Below, piece after piece: positions 28,921-34,993 of a stretch of 64,000 bases of DNA. The translations under genes and the position numbers were made by a program. Position 1 is the stretch's first letter. Every line of letters begins with the position of its first letter. The stretch comes from a virus. The stretch covers positions 2,547 to 66,546 of IMG/VR virus record IMGVR_UViG_3300028845_000223. The stretch is one strand, 5' to 3'. The notes beneath the pieces are model-generated. The model made no database searches. It had not been told where the DNA came from and saw nothing but the letters and a program-made list of their open reading frames with translations.

Positions 28921-29655
28921 TTATTCTTCTATATATTCATTAAGAAGATGTTCTGTTAACATAAATGTAAATTTTTGATGCGTTGATATATCTAACTCAT
29001 TAATAAAATTCTCATAAACTTTAAGACTGTTGTCACAACTCTCTATACTTTTTTCTGTTTCTTCAAGTTTCTCTAAAAGAGACTCTGCTTTGTTTTTTAG
29101 TTTTCCGTGTACACTAACATTTGAATATTCAAAATATTTTTTAATAACAGAAACAACATAGTCTTTTGCCCTTAAAGAAAGAACTTCTTCAGAATCAAAT
29201 GTTCCAAGAAACGTTAGTTTTTCTGAATCGTATTTTGCATATCTTTCGCAAAACAAAGAGTAAAGTTTCATTTTGGTTTATCCTTTTCAAGAAACACTGT
29301 TAGCAACACAGATACCATAACTCACACCAAACTTCTTGGCAAGAGCTTTAAGTCGTTGCCGCGTTTTTCTTTCCACTTTTATTTCTGGAATGGTGTCGTG
29401 GTCGCCATCGCCAATGGTAAAGATTTTCGAGGCAGAAACCAAATAAACCGAACCCTCCCCTGTAAAAGCGTTTCCAGAATGGCTATACCTCAGTCCTTTT
29501 TCTTTAAGAAATCCTTCAAATAGATATTCTTCAAGTTTTATCAAAAACTTATGTTTGTCTCCGTCTTCCGTAAACTTTCTAGGATAAGTTTTTAAAATCT
29601 GTTCTTTGGTTACAATAAATCCAAAAAATAATTTTGTTGTGTATGATATGCTCAT
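28921..29655 (-). other. Hypothetical ORFs 28921-29271 and 29287-29655
   Basis: Co-oriented ORFs; the first belongs to the FLGTF-x-SE family. Confidence 0.65.
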
Positions 29656-31217
29656 GATTGGTATATTGATTTTTCCGACGTAAAATGAGAAGTTGATTCT
29701 TTTTTCTCTTCTTTTTTTCCATCGTGGAAAATAGACCCAACAACTATCTCTGTATCGTTCTTATATGTAAAAACATGACGTTTTGTTGTTGTTGTTGTTT
29801 TACCCCCGAGGGCCTCGTTTTCAAAGGGAAACCAGCGTTGCTTAGTTTCATCTTTTTTAAAAGAAAGTCTCTTATCAACCTCAGATTTTCCTTTATAAGA
29901 AAAGTCTTTTTGAGCTATTTGGATCTGTTTGTTCCAAATTTCTCGAATTTTCTTTTCTTGTTCTTCCAAGGACATTCCTTTGATATTGATTGTTTCTTCT
30001 GGCGTGAACCAATGTTCAGGTCCTTGAGCAAGAGCACCCCCCGCATTTGTAACTTGTTTTGAAATTCTCGCTCCAAGTTTTCCATTATAGTCTTTGTAAC
30101 TTATTCTTCCCGCAGCTAGTTCAAAAACTTCTTTATTAGCATAAACCCTTATTTTATGTCCTTTTTGGTGGTAGTGTGCAACTCTTAAATAAGCTTGCGC
30201 AAGTGTTCCATAATTGGGTTCTCCAGGTCTATGATCATGTAAAAATGCCAAATATTGATGAAATCCTAATTCTGTTGATCTTGTACATGTTTGATTTACT
30301 ACTAATAAAGTTCTGTTTTTAAATTCTTGAAAATCTGAAACCAAATCTTTATATTGGTCCATCCAATCGAATCCATTATAAGCATCAACTGCAAGAATCT
30401 TAATATTCTGTTGTGATAGCCTCGCTTGAACTTTTGATTTTCTGAAGGCATTATATAGACCTACGTCTTTTTCTCCACCAGTTAATCTTAATATTCCTAT
30501 TGGTTTATCTTGTAAAGTTAACCACCAGTTAATAACTTCTTTTCCATGCTCTGTAAGGTCAGAACCATCAAAAAATGAATGTGGCTCAAAAACCAAATCG
30601 TTTTCCAAAAACCAACTAGCACCTTTGTATAAAGGATTTGGTTTTAATTCAATTATTTTTGCAACTTTACCAAAGTCTGAATTTTCGGCTTCTTCGTTTG
30701 TTGCTGAATAACATACAAGTTTTATTTTTCGTTCTTTACAAATTTCAAAAATTTTTGAGAAAAGATTTTTAATTCCTGTTCCATAATCTGATTCGTCAAA
30801 ATGTATAATCGCATTATTTGGGTTTTCTGTTTGTTTTAACTTTTGCAAAAGATTTCTTGAGTCTTTTGAAGACGCTAATACAATGACCTCTAATTTATAC
30901 TGTTTCAATTCTTCAATTTGTTCTTTTGTATCTAGTCGATTTAAAGCTGTAATAAAATAATGTCTATTTTGTACATCTTTTTGTGCATATGTTAATGCAA
31001 CAATTTCAGCTATTTGTCTTTTGCCGCTTTTAACTGGTGCTTTAACTAATACGTTAGAATTATAGTCTAATGCCTTGGTAATTTCGACCGCACAATCAAA
31101 CTGTTCTTTTCTATCCTTTTCAAACTCTAAAACATTCCAAGGATGTTGTCTTGGATTATTTTTTTCTCCTAATTCTGGACGATTATCCCTATACATCGTT
31201 GATTTCGTGTCAGTCAT
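29652..31217 (-). CDS. SF2 helicase-like ATPase
   Basis: VKAPVKSGKR (Walker A variant), HFDESDYG (DExD), YSAT (motif III), LAQAYLR (motif VI-like). Confidence 0.7.
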   Translation of the reverse strand: MTDTKSTMYRDNRPELGEKNNPRQHPWNVLEFEKDRKEQFDCAVEITKALDYNSNVLVKAPVKSGKRQIAEIVALTYAQKDVQNRHYFITALNRLDTKEQIEELKQYKLEVIVLASSKDSRNLLQKLKQTENPNNAIIHFDESDYGTGIKNLFSKIFEICKERKIKLVCYSATNEEAENSDFGKVAKIIELKPNPLYKGASWFLENDLVFEPHSFFDGSDLTEHGKEVINWWLTLQDKPIGILRLTGGEKDVGLYNAFRKSKVQARLSQQNIKILAVDAYNGFDWMDQYKDLVSDFQEFKNRTLLVVNQTCTRSTELGFHQYLAFLHDHRPGEPNYGTLAQAYLRVAHYHQKGHKIRVYANKEVFELAAGRISYKDYNGKLGARISKQVTNAGGALAQGPEHWFTPEETINIKGMSLEEQEKKIREIWNKQIQIAQKDFSYKGKSEVDKRLSFKKDETKQRWFPFENEALGGKTTTTTKRHVFTYKNDTEIVVGSIFHDGKKEEKKESTSHFTSEKSIYQS

Positions 31218-31395: not shown

Positions 31396-31465
31396 AGTAG
31401 GAGAGCAAAGAAACTAGTTTTTATAATCCTTTATACTTTAGAAGGAAGTTTCTCTATAGCCTACT
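31396..31465 (-). ncRNA. Bulged-hairpin RNA family, copy 3
   Basis: AGUAG/CUACU, GC/GC, AGAGAAACU/AGUUUCUUU, UCCUUCUA. Confidence 0.75.
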
Positions 31466-31466
31466 A

Positions 31467-31683
31467 TGGAAACGTCAATGAACAACAAAACATAAGTTAC
31501 ATGCTTTGCGGCGCTGTTTCATGAGCTTGAACCAATGTCTAGCAACAAAAGAGGGTTTATTTCTTTTATTCTAGAGAAAACAGCAAGGGGCATACCTCGA
31601 TGGAACTCGTACGCCAAGAACATCATTCAAACAGTGTCTCTGTCTTCCATGAACTATAACTTACTTGAAGTTATTGACGTTCC
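31467..31683 (-). ncRNA. ~215-nt structured RNA candidate
   Basis: Closing stem GGAACGUCAAU/AUUGACGUUUC then CA; internal AUGGAA/UUCCAU helix; possible GGCGUAC/GUAUGCC pseudoknot. Confidence 0.5.
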
Positions 31684-31713
31684 TAAACCTCAACCCATCT
31701 GAGGTTGTACTTT

Positions 31714-31939
31714 GATACAAGAGAGCAAAGAAACTAGATTTCTGAAAAAGGAATAGAAGGAAGTTTCTTTATCTGTTCTCCAAAACTTACTTAAAATCAT
31801 TTCTGATTTTAATGTTTGGTTCCTGTTTCTCGGACAAACTGGTTTTTAAACGAAAGTTTAAAAACGAACTCTCATCTCCGCAGGCTTTTGATTCTACTTC
31901 CATAGAATTGGTTTCCGTGGAACCCACGGTACCTTTTAG
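31714..31939 (-). ncRNA. Long-form RNA copy A (~165-nt domain plus bulged hairpin), after tRNA-Asn
   Basis: Closely similar to 33241-33479, with compensatory changes. Confidence 0.7.
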
Positions 31940-32012
31940 CGGTTCCCCCGAGACTTGAACTCGGAACCTTTTGCTTAACGGGCAAACACTCTACCAGTTG
32001 AGTTAGAGAACC
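31940..32012 (-). tRNA. trnN: tRNA-Asn(GUU), C at position 33
   Basis: GGTTCTC/GGGAACC acceptor, TTTGC-CCGTTAA-GCAAA. Confidence 0.85.
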
Positions 32013-32023
32013 ATTTTATTTGT

Positions 32024-32095
32024 TGGTGGGAACCGTTGGATTTGCACCAACATCTCAAGCTTGAGTAGCCTGTGTTTTGCTTAAACTAAATTCCC
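32024..32095 (-). tRNA. Atypical tRNA-like gene (loop UACUCAA, nominal Glu CUC)
   Basis: Cloverleaf with CCA, 5-nt D-loop (GTTT-AAGCA-AAAC), T-loop TGCAAAT, no U33. Confidence 0.6.
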
Positions 32096-32123
32096 TTGTT
32101 TTGTTTCTGTAAAACAATATCTT

Positions 32124-32363
32124 TTATTCTTTTGGCCTTTTCCCTGGATGCTCCATAAACAAAAAGATAAAAAGAGTTGAAAATGGAGGAATCCAGTACC
32201 AAATTGATATTACTATGTTTATGCTTGCCGCGATAAATAAAGTCCAATATCTAAACCTTTTATCTTTCCATCTTTGAAGAGGACTGCTTACATCTATTGT
32301 TGTAATTTTTGGATGTTGCCGCGGAATTTCTATTTTATACGGTTTCCGATATGGATTATCCAT
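32124..32363 (-). CDS. Small membrane protein
   Basis: MDNPYRKPY... with a hydrophobic C-terminal segment. Confidence 0.55.
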   Translation of the reverse strand: MDNPYRKPYKIEIPRQHPKITTIDVSSPLQRWKDKRFRYWTLFIAASINIVISIWYWIPPFSTLFIFLFMEHPGKRPKE

Positions 32364-32369
32364 TTTATT

Positions 32370-32445
32370 TGGTGAACCCGACAGGACTTGAACCTGCAAC
32401 ATTTTGGCTGCAAACCAAACACTCTCCCAATTGAGTTACGAGCCC
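32370..32445 (-). tRNA. trnA: tRNA-Ala(UGC)
   Basis: G3:U70 pair, TTTGG-TTTGCAG-CCAAA, encoded CCA. Confidence 0.9.
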
Positions 32446-32450
32446 TTATT

Positions 32451-32975
32451 TTATTGGTAATATTCCTTTGGTAAACTTACATTTACATTTTTCACTTCAA
32501 TAATTTCTTTTGCCAAGAAACTTGTATGGCGATAATAGTATACTAAATTACCCATTTCTAAGTCAGACCTTTTTACCAAAGTTTTTTCATATTCAATTAA
32601 TTTTTTAATGGTTGAAAAATTGTTTATATTTTCTTTTAATTCCTTTTGCAAAGTTTTAATAAAACCTAAACCAACATTAGGATTATTTAAAATATTCCAT
32701 TTAGCTGTTTTAAGGTCAACTTTACCAGAATAACGATTGCGTTCTCTAAGTGTATAAAAGAAATATTCTCCATCATCTCTCTTTATACAACAATCTCCAC
32801 GTCTATATTCATCTTCTCCTCCATAATACGGAAATACTTCTGTTTTAAGAGAATCATCATTGACATTTTCAATCAAAAAATCAAAACGATTTAAATGCCT
32901 TATCAATAATTGTTCAACTATGTCTGTTTCATAGTCAAAGCAATAAATCTCTCCTCCATAGTTTAACTGGTACAT
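32451..32975 (-). CDS. Hypothetical protein
   Basis: 174-aa ORF inside the tRNA cluster. Confidence 0.6.
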   Translation of the reverse strand: MYQLNYGGEIYCFDYETDIVEQLLIRHLNRFDFLIENVNDDSLKTEVFPYYGGEDEYRRGDCCIKRDDGEYFFYTLRERNRYSGKVDLKTAKWNILNNPNVGLGFIKTLQKELKENINNFSTIKKLIEYEKTLVKRSDLEMGNLVYYYRHTSFLAKEIIEVKNVNVSLPKEYYQ

Positions 32976-33000
32976 CTTTATCTTTTCTTGAGGAATTTAG

Positions 33001-33072
33001 GAGTCAGGAATGGAATCGAACCATTGACCTCGCACTTCCACAGCACGGCTCTACCACTGAGCTACACGACTC
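33001..33072 (-). tRNA. trnH: tRNA-His(GUG)-like, imperfect anticodon arm
   Basis: G-1:C73 signature, canonical D and T arms, CTGTGGA loop with a weak stem. Confidence 0.55.
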
Positions 33073-33077
33073 ATATA

Positions 33078-33153
33078 AACACCAAGAAAGCAAGAAAACT
33101 AGTTTTTTCACCCTTTGAATTTTTAGAAGGAAGTTTTCTTATGGCTTGGTGCT
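33078..33153 (-). ncRNA. Bulged-hairpin RNA family, copy 5 (directly after tRNA-Glu CCA)
   Basis: CACCAA/UUGGUG, GC/GC, AAGAAAACU/AGUUUUCUU, UCCUUCUA. Confidence 0.75.
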
Positions 33154-33230
33154 TGGTGATCCCAATGAGATTTGAACTCATATTTCTCATTCTGAAAAAA
33201 TGGTAGCCTAAACCGTTAGCTGATGGGACC
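33154..33230 (-). tRNA. trnE: tRNA-Glu(UUC)
   Basis: GGTCCCA/TGGGATC acceptor, CCATT-TTTTCAG-AATGA, encoded CCA. Confidence 0.85.
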
Positions 33231-33240
33231 ATAATAAAAC

Positions 33241-33479
33241 ATACAAACGAGGAAAGCAAGAAAACTAGTTTCATTCACATATTGATTTTAGAAAGAAGTT
33301 TCCTTATATTGTTCTCCAAAACTTACTCAAAACCATTTCTGATTTTAATGTTTGGTTCCTGCTTCTCAGACAAGCTGATTATTTCCCAAAAAGGAAATAA
33401 TGAACTCTCATCTCCACAGGCTTTTGATTCGAAAGTTTTCATTCGAATCGGTTTCCGCGGAACCCGCAGTACCTTTTAG
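33241..33479 (-). ncRNA. Long-form RNA copy B, after tRNA-Asp
   Basis: Homolog of 31714-31939; same CUAAAAGGUAC start directly after the discriminator base. Confidence 0.7.
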
Positions 33480-33551
33480 CGGAGTATGCGAGAATTGAAC
33501 TCGCGACGCTCGGATGACAACCGAGTGTTATGACCATTTAACTAATACTCC
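33480..33551 (-). tRNA. trnD: tRNA-Asp(GUC)
   Basis: GGAGTAT/ATACTCC acceptor, CTCGG-TTGTCAT-CCGAG, G73. Confidence 0.9.
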
Positions 33552-33554
33552 TAG

Positions 33555-33684
33555 CAGTCGCCGATTGTTTTGCACAATCATTTTTGCTTGATTAAACCTT
33601 GTCTTATTTATTCGAGCTCGTGTTCCCGATAAAACAAACAAAGTTTGGGTTCATGCACTATTTTGCTGTTTAAACTAGGCGACT
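33555..33684 (-). ncRNA. 130-nt tRNA-like RNA with a long hairpin replacing the anticodon arm
   Basis: AGTCGCC/GGCGACT acceptor, GATTG-TGCAAAA-CAATC T-arm, TAGTTTAA D-arm start. Confidence 0.55.
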
Positions 33685-33692
33685 AGTATTGG

Positions 33693-33758
33693 ATACAGGA
33701 GAGCAAGAAAACTAGATTTCTGAAAATGAATAGAAGGAAGTTTTCTTATTGCCTGTAT
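33693..33758 (-). ncRNA. Bulged-hairpin RNA family, copy 7 (directly after the CCA of the atypical tRNA)
   Basis: AUACAG/CUGUAU, GC/GC, AAGAAAACU/AGUUUUCUU, UCCUUCUA. Confidence 0.75.
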
Positions 33759-33904: not shown

Positions 33905-33932
33905 ATCTTAGTCACCCTTGAGAGAGTGTCAA
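33905..33932 (-). promoter_or_regulatory. Sigma70-type promoter for the tRNA/ncRNA cluster
   Basis: TTGACA-16 nt-TAAGAT. Confidence 0.6.
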
Positions 33933-34339: not shown

Positions 34340-34864
34340 TTATTGGAAAAGAGAGGAATCAATATCAAGGTTTAATTCTTTTGAGTTTGCCTCGGCAATT
34401 CCAGCTCGAAGGGCAGTTAACTGCGCATTTTTATTTGCGGCGGTTTCAACAATGTCTTTTATTAACATCGTACGTTTTGGCCACTCATATTGAGCATTTG
34501 TGGCTCCATAGTGAAGTCTTTGGCTATCATAAGGATCTTCTTCTTTTGAAGACTCAGCTTTCCAAAGTCCTTCCATTCTACCAACGCCACCAATCATTTT
34601 GACGGCACTCATCAGTGTCATTCTTTGTTCTTCTCCAAACAAGAAATAAGAAACGGTAATTTGTAAATTATATTTGGCTTGGGCCTCTTGAAGAGCACAA
34701 ATAGAGTTTTCGGTTTTGAGAATATCTTTTTCAATTTCCGAAGGCATTCTCCCTGTTTGGGAAGCTTTTCGGAAAAATGAGTTTCTGAACTCTCTTAAGA
34801 GAGGTTCTTTTCTTGCTTCCCAACGTTTGATAGCTTCTTTTAGTTGATATCCGTTAACTTTCAT
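34340..34864 (-). CDS. Hypothetical helical protein
   Basis: MKVNGYQLKEAIKRW... ORF with start-site context like neighbours. Confidence 0.65.
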   Translation of the reverse strand: MKVNGYQLKEAIKRWEARKEPLLREFRNSFFRKASQTGRMPSEIEKDILKTENSICALQEAQAKYNLQITVSYFLFGEEQRMTLMSAVKMIGGVGRMEGLWKAESSKEEDPYDSQRLHYGATNAQYEWPKRTMLIKDIVETAANKNAQLTALRAGIAEANSKELNLDIDSSLFQ

Positions 34865-34993
34865 TTTTGGTTTCTCTTTCCTTGTCTCTTGCCCCTTCAT
34901 TCTAAGCACCTGGGGAGTGGTGTCAACCACCTTTTTTCTTCTCGTTTGTTTTTGAATTAAAATGAAATAATATTGTTTCTTGGTTGGAGTGAG

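What the first reader, a model, noticed from the sequence alone, without database searches (positions are those of the whole stretch)
31714..33479. Duplicated ~230-nt long-form RNA in the trailers of tRNA-Asn and tRNA-Asp
Seen: both GUY-anticodon tRNAs lack an intact CCA (G73-CUA) and continue with CUAAAAGGUAC into a ~165-nt domain. Compensatory changes: CGUGG/CCACG vs UGCGG/CCGCG, AUUCUA/UAGAAU vs GAUUCGAA/UUCGAAUC, and GUUUUUAAAC/GUUUAAAAAC vs AUUAUUUCC/GGAAAUAAU. CCUG/CAGG and a possible GGUUCC/GGAACC pseudoknot are conserved. The domain runs into the bulged hairpin, and GGUAC can close with GUAUY. Inference: an undescribed ribozyme or scaffold RNA. Known tRNA-linked theta ribozymes did not match by eye.
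Basis: partly seen in the sequence, partly recalled or inferred. Interest (0 to 1): 0.7.

Follow-up and report, generated by a model that had tools for sequence, protein, structure and literature searches.

The report
Orphan structured RNA fused behind phage tRNAs
A large uncultured phage carries, directly behind its tRNA-Asp and tRNA-Asn genes, two copies of a ~166-base RNA whose four helices are kept by compensating mutations while its linkers never change; a related phage has it too, it matches no known RNA family, and what it does is still unknown.

Summary
tRNA-Asn(GUU) and tRNA-Asp(GUC) both lack CCA. Each runs from G73 through CUAAAA into a ~166-nt domain (window 31939-31774 and 33479-33310, minus strand). 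The two copies differ by 27 substitutions: 23 lie in paired columns and break no pair, 4 lie in hairpin loops, and none lies in the 41 linker columns. I found a third copy behind tRNA-Asp of a related phage (ENA contig, L058). It adds new pair types and leaves the linkers invariant. Four helices are therefore well supported. The closing helix, the proposed pseudoknot and the GGUAC/GUAUY closure are not testable or not supported. The downstream bulged hairpin is not integral to the domain. tRNA-Asp is probably the original site, because close and distant relatives have tRNA-Asn without the domain. There is no Rfam match, and I found no link to theta/HDV-like ribozymes, T4 rnaC/rnaD or group I introns. 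Covariance models found no copy in seven related phage genomes or in pattern scans of three collections. The scan's own look-up found no look-alike on other DNA. Best reading (0.42): a new stable non-coding RNA released by tRNA 3' processing, function unknown. Catalysis or a cis switch on tRNA maturation remains open.

The parts
33905..33932 (-). Promoter-like site (TTGACA-16-TAAGAT) at the head of the RNA island that holds both copies
   Evidence: 10 of 12 matches. The same hexamers lie at the matching place in L058. Consensus match only.
33480..33551 (-). tRNA-Asp(GUC), G73, no encoded CCA. Probable original host of the domain.
   Evidence: 67.8 bits. 94% identical to the L058 tRNA-Asp, which also carries the domain.
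33310..33479 (-). Domain, Asp-linked copy (170 nt). Ha 33468-33456, Hb 33449-33426, Hc 33420-33358, Hd (GAAA loop) 33348-33327, UUUUGG 33321-33316, tail AGAACA.
   Evidence: Model R1 scores it 206 bits.
33249..33309 (-). Bulged hairpin module after the Asp copy. It belongs to a family of 6-7 hairpins that follow RNA 3' ends in this island and is not part of the domain.
   Evidence: families D2, D3. It is deleted in L058 together with the 5' part of tRNA-Glu.
31940..32012 (-). tRNA-Asn(GUU), G73, no encoded CCA
   Evidence: 62.3 bits.
31774..31939 (-). Domain, Asn-linked copy (166 nt). Ha 31928-31916, Hb 31908-31891, Hc 31884-31822, Hd 31812-31791, UUUUGG 31785-31780. This is a lineage-specific second copy.
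   Evidence: 194.7 bits. L060, a 95%-identical variant, diverges exactly after CUAAAA at window 31934. The tRNA-Asn genes of L058 and L059 lack it.
31714..31773 (-). Bulged hairpin module after the Asn copy
   Evidence: family D7. It is closest to the hairpin at 33689-33747.
32451..32975 (-). ORF174, an orphan protein inside the same RNA island. Weak candidate partner only.
   Evidence: Among 5.8 billion proteins only two homologue clusters exist, P0088 (on L060) and P0089 (on L058 and L059). The domain is seen only on L058; L059 and L060 are short contigs that do not reach the tRNA-Asp site. No Pfam or PHROG hit. No fold match.

Best explanation
It is a discrete structured non-coding RNA of about 166 nt and a new, narrowly distributed family. 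Three copies are known, in two related large phages. It is transcribed on the minus strand as the 3' trailer of a CCA-less tRNA, inside a promoter-driven island of tRNAs, tRNA mimics and hairpins. Its 5' end is most likely made by the endonuclease cut that matures the tRNA 3' end (an RNase Z-type cut after G73). The tRNA would then serve as the processing signal, as in T4 tRNA-Arg/rnaD/rnaC, the MHV68 TMERs and the E. coli 3'ETS of leuZ. Once released, the RNA would act in trans through its invariant linker core, most likely as a scaffold bound by a phage or host protein.

Shown: the sequence, the strand, four covarying helices, invariant linkers, the position abutting G73, and conservation across phages at the level of the tRNAs.

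Inferred: the cleavage, the stability, the action in trans and any partner.
For: Structure under selection:
- 8 pairs changed on both sides, and two pairs show three pair types.
- There are 0 substitutions in 41 linker columns in all three copies.

Transcribed strand:
- Many G-U pairs would be A-C mismatches on the other strand.
- The orientation is the same as all neighbouring tRNAs.

Conservation between phages:
- The domain is 89% identical.
- tRNAs are 81-95%, ORF174 DNA is 73% and the hairpin is 74%.

Boundaries:
- All three copies start at C74 and stay alike up to GGAGAACA, whatever follows.

Generic trailer:
- CCA-less tRNAs of this phage share the C74-UAAA(A) trailer. Trailer removal is therefore a general step that the domain can use.

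Precedents:
- T4 has rnaD starting 1-2 nt after tRNA-Arg, followed by rnaC. Both are expressed and their function is still unknown (PMC9697503).
- MHV68 TMERs are processed by tRNase Z (PMC4838037).

Real DNA:
- An identical stretch was assembled independently in SRR10823758.
Against:
- No partner protein is identified.
- The family is tiny, so covariation rests on three sequences.
- The first six trailer bases can pair with UUUUGG, which might hinder rather than help an RNase Z cut.
- The 85-89% identity partly reflects recent common descent.
- A trans function is a guess by analogy.
Confidence: 0.42

Rival explanations
1. It is a cis-acting gate on tRNA maturation. While attached, the domain controls when tRNA-Asp (and, in this phage, tRNA-Asn) gets a free 3' end. 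The invariant UUUUGG can pair either with the trailer start C(U)AAAA, which hides the cut site next to G73, or with the internal CCAAA, which frees it. A protein, a ligand or the folding order would choose between the two states.
For: The two pairings are mutually exclusive and nearly isoenergetic in all three copies (-34.7 vs -35.2, -41.1 vs -41.6 and -36.9 vs -38.2 kcal/mol). RNAalifold picks one and the single-sequence MFE of the Asp copy picks the other. The domain always starts at C74. Both hosts are CCA-less, so they depend on a trailer cut plus CCA addition. A second alternative pairing, between the acceptor 3' strand CUCCGC and GUGGAG in Hc, recurs in folds of the precursor.
Against: All the sequences involved are invariant, so no covariation supports either state. 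Short A-U-rich pairings arise easily in AT-rich RNA. About 150 nt of conserved structure is far more than a simple occluding helix needs. No ligand or aptamer family matches.
Confidence: 0.2
2. It is a new catalytic RNA. It cleaves at or near its own 5' end and so makes the tRNA 3' end without a host nuclease. That is the job proposed for theta ribozymes, done here by an unrelated and much larger fold.
For: The position is the same as for theta ribozymes: directly 3' of CCA-less phage tRNAs (PMC10879173). The multi-helix architecture has about 41 invariant linker nucleotides. G73 and C74 are invariant at the junction. The size is in the range of glmS and VS ribozymes (my own knowledge).
Against: No known self-cleaving class matches at E<=10. 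There is no HDV-like nested pseudoknot. The other CCA-less tRNAs of this phage have the same C74-UAAA(A) trailer without any domain (UAAAA for Ser, Leu and Gln, UAAA for Pro), so they must be processed by a protein enzyme anyway. Invariant linkers fit a protein-binding site equally well.
Confidence: 0.12
3. It is a relic or derivative of a group I intron (P2 to P6/J6-7 part), or another mobile RNA module that spreads between tRNA trailers. Any present function would be secondary.
For: The domain models give their best outside hit (13.6-14.7 bits, E about 0.01) inside a group I intron that interrupts tRNA-Asn in a third related lineage (L061). The linker motifs are colinear there. The domain sits at two different tRNAs in this phage, and the novel DNA starts exactly after the shared CUAAAA. 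The three copies are mosaic.
Against: RF00028 does not score the domain even in a 511-nt search. Local alignment to the L061 intron is no better than shuffles. Model R2 gives no significant hit on five further RF00028 matches in relatives, three of them above Rfam's cut-off; its only overlaps with them score 7-8 bits, E>=1. I found no P3/P7 pseudoknot and no terminal G by inspection. Invariant linkers argue for a present function.
Confidence: 0.08
4. It is a DNA-level element or a functionless trailer whose similarity is only recent duplication.
For: Only three copies are known and identity is high (85-89%).
Against: The substitution pattern is highly non-random. G-U pairs make the helices strand-specific. 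The domain is conserved like the tRNAs, while the neighbouring ORF DNA is 73% identical.
Confidence: 0.03

Closest known systems
Phage T4 stable RNAs rnaD (species 2) and rnaC (species 1)
   Same: They are stable non-coding RNAs encoded in a phage tRNA cluster and start 1-2 nt after a tRNA (tRNA-Arg). They are co-transcribed with tRNAs, expressed, and still of unknown function (PMC9697503). This phage has a T4-like rIIB gene nearby.
   Different: No homology: model R1 finds nothing in the T4 locus. The T4 RNAs end in a T-arm-like hairpin and a CCA-like end. This domain has no T arm and no CCA, and it follows a CCA-less tRNA.
Theta ribozymes (minimal HDV-like ribozymes 3' of phage tRNAs; PMC10879173)
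   Same: They lie directly downstream of mostly CCA-less tRNAs in Caudoviricetes and have a proposed role in tRNA 3'-trailer removal.
   Different: Theta ribozymes are minimal HDV-like double pseudoknots with a catalytic C in J4/2. This RNA is far larger (my own knowledge of minimal HDV-like ribozyme size), has four ordinary helices, gives no HDV-family hit, and has no partner for a P1 starting at the junction.
tRNA-punctuated non-coding RNAs: MHV68 TMERs (PMC4838037); E. coli 3'ETS-leuZ and MALAT1/mascRNA (my own knowledge)
   Same: A functional RNA shares a transcript with a tRNA or tRNA-like element and is released by the tRNA end-processing enzymes.
   Different: Those cargoes are hairpins, short linear sponges or long RNAs. 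Here the cargo is a 166-nt multi-helix RNA. Processing is not shown here.
Group I introns (RF00028), IC3-type tRNA introns
   Same: They occur in tRNA genes of this phage group (L061 tRNA-Asn). There is a weak colinear resemblance of the linkers to J3/4, the P4-P6 junction and J6/7.
   Different: No RF00028 score. I found no P3/P7 pseudoknot and no terminal G by inspection. The domain lies after the tRNA, not inside it.
GOLLD, ROOL and other large RNAs often found beside phage tRNA genes (my own knowledge)
   Same: They are structured RNAs of unknown function in phage or prophage tRNA neighbourhoods.
   Different: They are roughly 3-5 times larger (my own knowledge). No Rfam match to them.

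Membership tests
Any Rfam 15 family (4227 models) | Score at or above the family's gathering threshold | tested here: not met
   Only tRNAs pass. At E<=10 on 2 kb and on 511 nt, only sub-threshold chance hits appear: STnc300, CRISPR-DR46, IMES-4 and snoRNAs.
Theta / HDV-like ribozymes | Nested double pseudoknot with P1 starting at the cleavage site, and a match to the HDV-like covariance models | tested here: not met
   No HDV-family hit at E<=10. By inspection, no complement to the first 7 nt lies within the first 80 nt. Size is 166 nt with four plain helices.
Theta / HDV-like ribozymes | Self-cleavage at the 5' end of the ribozyme | not testable with these tools
   Needs in vitro transcription.
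Group I intron (RF00028) | Covariance-model score; P3/P7 pseudoknot with G-binding site; terminal G | tested here: not met
   RF00028 is absent at E<=10 over the domain plus 330 nt downstream, while the same model finds the L061 intron at 38.8 bits. Smith-Waterman alignment is no better than shuffles. R2 gives no significant hit on five further RF00028 matches.
T4 rnaC / rnaD | Sequence and structure homology; tRNA-like 3' part (T-arm-like hairpin, CCA-like end) | tested here: not met
   R1 with filters off finds nothing above noise in the T4 locus. The domain ends in GGAGAACA with no T-arm-like hairpin.
tRNA-linked (tRNA-punctuated) non-coding RNAs, as a functional kind | The RNA abuts a tRNA on the same strand in one transcription unit | tested here: met
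   The domain starts at C74 in three of three copies. A promoter-like site lies upstream, and no strong minus-strand terminator-like site lies between the tRNA and the domain.
tRNA-linked (tRNA-punctuated) non-coding RNAs, as a functional kind | Release by RNase Z or RNase P and accumulation as a discrete RNA | not testable with these tools
Retron msr-msd RNA | A reverse transcriptase gene encoded alongside the RNA | tested here: not met
   No RVT_1 in the 204-kb record, which is 56% complete. No reverse transcriptase lies next to the copy on L058.

The most novel reading that the evidence does not exclude
The domain is a new class of catalytic or switching RNA that itself decides when the 3' end of tRNA-Asp or tRNA-Asn is made. 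It would be either a large self-cleaving ribozyme at the tRNA/trailer junction, or a two-state RNA (UUUUGG pairing with the trailer or with the internal CCAAA) that gates the nuclease cut. Either would give the phage its own control over the supply of two tRNAs.
Probability: 0.2. Interest if true: 0.85.

Novelty: new variant of a known kind. Interest (0 to 1): 0.55.

Why it matters
Phage tRNA clusters have carried unexplained stable RNAs since the T4 species 1 and 2 RNAs of the 1970s. Large phages turn out to hold whole 'RNA islands'. This domain is a clean, compact case: a defined start at a tRNA end, four proven helices and about 41 invariant linker bases. It matches no known family, so it is a tractable candidate for a new ribozyme, a protein-binding scaffold or a tRNA-maturation switch. 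Its limits are a very narrow known distribution and no expression data.

Tried and rejected
1. Rfam at gathering score and at E<=10: nothing.
2. blastn against 50,697 phage records: no match.
3. Exact-pattern scans built on conserved segments gave zero hits or only chance hits that the covariance model rejected. These were viral contigs x3, metagenome contigs and genome contigs.
4. A hairpin-motif scan of viral contigs gave 9 chance hits with no tRNAs nearby.
5. Models R1 and R2 on seven related phage genomes (G001-G007): no hit. The closest complete relative, G001 (305 kb, 46 tRNAs), has tRNA-Asn and tRNA-Asp followed by ORFs or another tRNA.
6. Synteny through the 521-aa neighbour: relatives lack a tRNA array there.
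7. T4 rnaC/rnaD homology: none.
8. Group I link: weak and not reproducible.
9. 'Codon' idea: column 31 is A in the Asn copy and G in the Asp copy, giving AAU and GAU. L058 refutes it, because there A sits with tRNA-Asp.
10. Antisense targets in the phage: 14-mers occur at chance level.
11. No similarity of the domain to the other spacers of the island.
12. No reverse transcriptase and no CCA-adding enzyme in the held 204 kb.
13. ORF174 as a partner: the AF2 model has pLDDT 70. The best Foldseek hits (PolG2 / GlyRS-like) have E about 0.09 and TM 0.2. VIA gives Z<=4.6 and the Atlas gives nothing. This is inconclusive.
14. My own closing helix H1 (UAC/GUA part) is less stable than the alternatives and is not predicted by RNAalifold. 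I no longer claim a five-way junction.
Full report
**Setting.** The window is part of an IMG/VR virus record of 203,914 bases, estimated 56% complete. G+C is about 33%. Protein genes are open under the standard code, table 11. The record carries 17 tRNA matches, all inside the window. The region 31.2-33.9 kb (minus strand) is an island with few protein genes. It begins at a promoter-like site, TTGACA-16-TAAGAT, at 33932-33905. It holds tRNAs, tRNA-like mimics, a repeated bulged hairpin and one small ORF.

**The observation.**
- tRNA-Asn(GUU) lies at 31940-32012 and tRNA-Asp(GUC) at 33480-33551.
- Both end in G73 and continue with C-U-A-A-A-A-G-G-U-A-C instead of CCA.
- The trailers align for about 230 nt. 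This splits into a 166/170-nt domain that is 85% identical and a hairpin module.
- Only these two copies exist in the held genome.
- An independent Logan assembly (SRR10823758) contains the identical 3-kb stretch, so this is not an assembly artefact.

**One correction to the observation.** C74 followed by UAAA(A) is the common trailer of the CCA-less tRNAs here: UAAAA for Ser, Leu and Gln, UAAA for Pro. Ile, Tyr and Lys have C74 followed by a run of A's. The missing CCA and the CUA are therefore not specific to the GUY tRNAs.

**Structure.** Four helices fit both copies:
- Ha: 5-6 bp with a GUU loop.
- Hb: 6-8 bp.
- Hc: a long interrupted arm of 29 pairs, closed by CCUG/CAGG.
- Hd: 9 bp with a GAAA tetraloop.

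The 27 substitutions between the copies are distributed as follows:
- 23 lie in paired columns.
- 8 pairs changed on both sides.
- The three non-canonical pairs of the Asn copy are canonical in the Asp copy.
- 4 substitutions lie in hairpin loops.
- None lies in the 41 linker, internal-loop and tail columns.

Random substitutions in the paired columns would break 18 +/- 2.4 pairs. None of 20,000 trials did as well as the observed pattern. I derived the structure from these same sequences, which inflates such tests. RNAalifold, however, recovers all four helices independently. Many G-U pairs fix the RNA to the minus strand. Folding z-scores are -4.3 and -4.75.

**A third copy.**
- The orphan ORF174 inside the island (32451-32975) has only two homologue clusters among 5.8 billion proteins.
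- The 60%-identical one lies on an ENA contig, L058. There tRNA-Asp is followed by the domain, which model R1 scores at 179 bits.
- The L058 copy is a mosaic of the two window copies. It adds a third pair type at two positions (36-49 UA/GC/AU and 85-96 AU/UA/GC) and turns the Hc tip into a GAAA-capped helix of different sequence.
- It leaves every linker column unchanged.
- On three sequences, 97.5% of cells are paired, against 32-48% with slid partners.
- Between the two phages the domain is 89% identical. That is within the range of the tRNAs (81-95%) and well above ORF174 DNA (73%) and the hairpin (74%).

**What belongs to the domain.**
- All three copies begin at C74 and stay alike up to GGAGAACA.
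- What follows differs. In the window it is the bulged hairpin. In L058 it is a 22-nt remnant of the tRNA-Glu 3' end with CCA, and only then a hairpin.
- The hairpin is therefore a separate module, and the '230-nt long form' is a composite.

**What remains open in the fold.**
- The invariant UUUUGG can pair with the trailer start C(U)AAAA, which would close the whole domain. It can also pair with the internal CCAAA.
- GGU can pair with ACC to extend Ha.
- These alternatives are within about 1 kcal/mol of each other in all copies. Different programs choose differently.
- Nothing in them varies, so none is tested.
- The same holds for the GGUUCC/GGAACC pseudoknot, which overlaps Ha and Hc.

**History.**
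- In L058 and L059, tRNA-Asn is followed by an ORF.
- In L060, a 95%-identical variant of this very phage, the sequence diverges exactly after G73-CUAAAA (window 31934) into an unrelated ORF.
- In a third lineage (L061, ORF196 homologue 72% identical), tRNA-Asp is followed by an ORF and no domain is found on the 8.5-kb contig.
- tRNA-Asp is therefore probably the original site, and the Asn copy is a secondary acquisition through the shared generic trailer.
- The association with 'GUY anticodons' is then probably incidental. tRNA-Tyr(GUA) in the window has no domain.

**Distribution.** No copy was found in any of the following:
- 50,697 phage records.
- Pattern scans of IMG/VR, JGI metagenomes and GTDB genomes.
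- Seven related large-phage genomes searched whole with the covariance models.

The closest relatives are all in Logan and ENA assemblies, which I could reach only through exact protein look-ups. Those are now exhausted. The scan's own index holds no look-alike on other DNA.

**Comparison with known RNAs.**
- Rfam 15 gives nothing.
- Theta ribozymes share the position behind CCA-less phage tRNAs (PMC10879173). They are minimal HDV-like pseudoknots, and neither the models nor inspection find that fold here.
- T4 rnaD and rnaC are the nearest precedent in kind. They are stable RNAs starting 1-2 nt after tRNA-Arg, they are expressed, and their function is unknown (PMC9697503). They are not homologous to this domain and end in tRNA-like parts.
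- The domain models give a weak hit (about 14 bits, E about 0.01) inside a group I intron that splits tRNA-Asn in L061. RF00028 does not score the domain. Sequence alignment is at shuffle level. R2 gives no significant hit on five further RF00028 matches of relatives. I treat this link as unsupported.

**How it most likely works.**
- The shown facts are: a strongly constrained RNA fold, invariant linkers, a start fixed at the tRNA end, and conservation like that of the tRNAs.
- These facts fit best a discrete non-coding RNA released when the tRNA 3' end is cut. That cut is a step this phage's other CCA-less tRNAs need anyway.
- MHV68 TMERs are processed in the same way by tRNase Z (PMC4838037).
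- The released RNA would act through its linker core, probably with a protein. I give this 0.42.
- A cis gate on tRNA maturation (0.20) and a new ribozyme (0.12) fit the position equally well. Only experiments can separate them.
- ORF174 co-occurs with the domain in both lineages. It has no recognisable family or fold. It is only a lead.

**Verdict.** This is a real, apparently undescribed structured RNA family attached to phage tRNAs. As a kind of system (a stable RNA riding on tRNA processing) it has precedents. As a fold it has none that I could find. Interest is moderate to good (0.55): the evidence for structure and selection is strong, the distribution is very narrow, and the function is unknown.

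Noticed in passing
L061:5311-5627: In a related phage contig (Logan SRR15458577), a tRNA-Asn(GUU) appears split in its anticodon loop by a ~265-nt group I intron. RF00028 scores it 38.8 bits (E 1e-8), below the gathering score. ARAGORN does not call this tRNA.
   Followed up: partly
window 31460-31713 (-): A ~250-nt stretch without a credible ORF lies between the Asn-copy hairpin and the next hairpin. It ends in ...GACGUUUCCA just before that hairpin, like the CCA-ended tRNAs. It is probably another stable RNA of the island. It has no significant similarity to the domain.
   Followed up: partly
window 33552-33692 (-); L058:2052-2188: A 141-nt element lies directly upstream of tRNA-Asp. It has an acceptor-like helix (AGUCGCC/GGCGACU), a UGC-containing T-like hairpin and a CUA end. 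It is conserved at 75% in L058. It looks like an oversized tRNA mimic.
   Followed up: no
window 8875-33551: Every CCA-less tRNA still encodes C74. It is followed by UAAA(A) (Ser, Leu, Gln, Pro, Asn, Asp) or by a run of A's (Ile-UAU, Tyr, Lys). Six tRNAs encode full CCA, and three of them (Ile-GAU, Gly, Glu-UUC) are followed at once by the bulged hairpin. These look like two distinct 3'-end regimes in one phage.
   Followed up: partly
L058:2429-2450: After the domain, L058 keeps only the last ~20 nt of tRNA-Glu(UUC) plus CCA. The domain's own hairpin and the 5' two-thirds of tRNA-Glu are deleted, apparently between GAGAACAAU and GAGUUCAAAU.
   Followed up: no
L058:3410-3520; L059:908-988: The ORF that follows tRNA-Asn in the related phage begins MVLKTFQVELDPNNRQKTLFVKNCGAARFAFNFAL. 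From memory this resembles the N-terminus of TnpB/OrfB_IS605 proteins. It is not verified. A TnpB gene is annotated in another relative (L013).
   Followed up: no
L060:134-206 and 762-830: In the 95%-identical variant, ARAGORN reads the tRNA-Pro with a four-base anticodon (AUGG, widened loop). The tRNA-Ala has lost part of its T arm. This is either real variation in the island or assembly error.
   Followed up: no
window 34340-34930 (-); L062, L063: ORF196 has no Pfam or PHROG family. It has 27-29% identical relatives in distant large phages. Two of those three relatives sit inside or beside tRNA arrays. It may be a protein tied to tRNA clusters.
   Followed up: partly
window 29652-31217 (-): The 521-aa neighbour has an invariant P-loop (PVKSGKR) and a DESD motif across 27 homologues from very large phage contigs (300-500 kb). 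It has no Pfam or PHROG hit. It is probably an uncharacterised NTPase of this phage group.
   Followed up: partly
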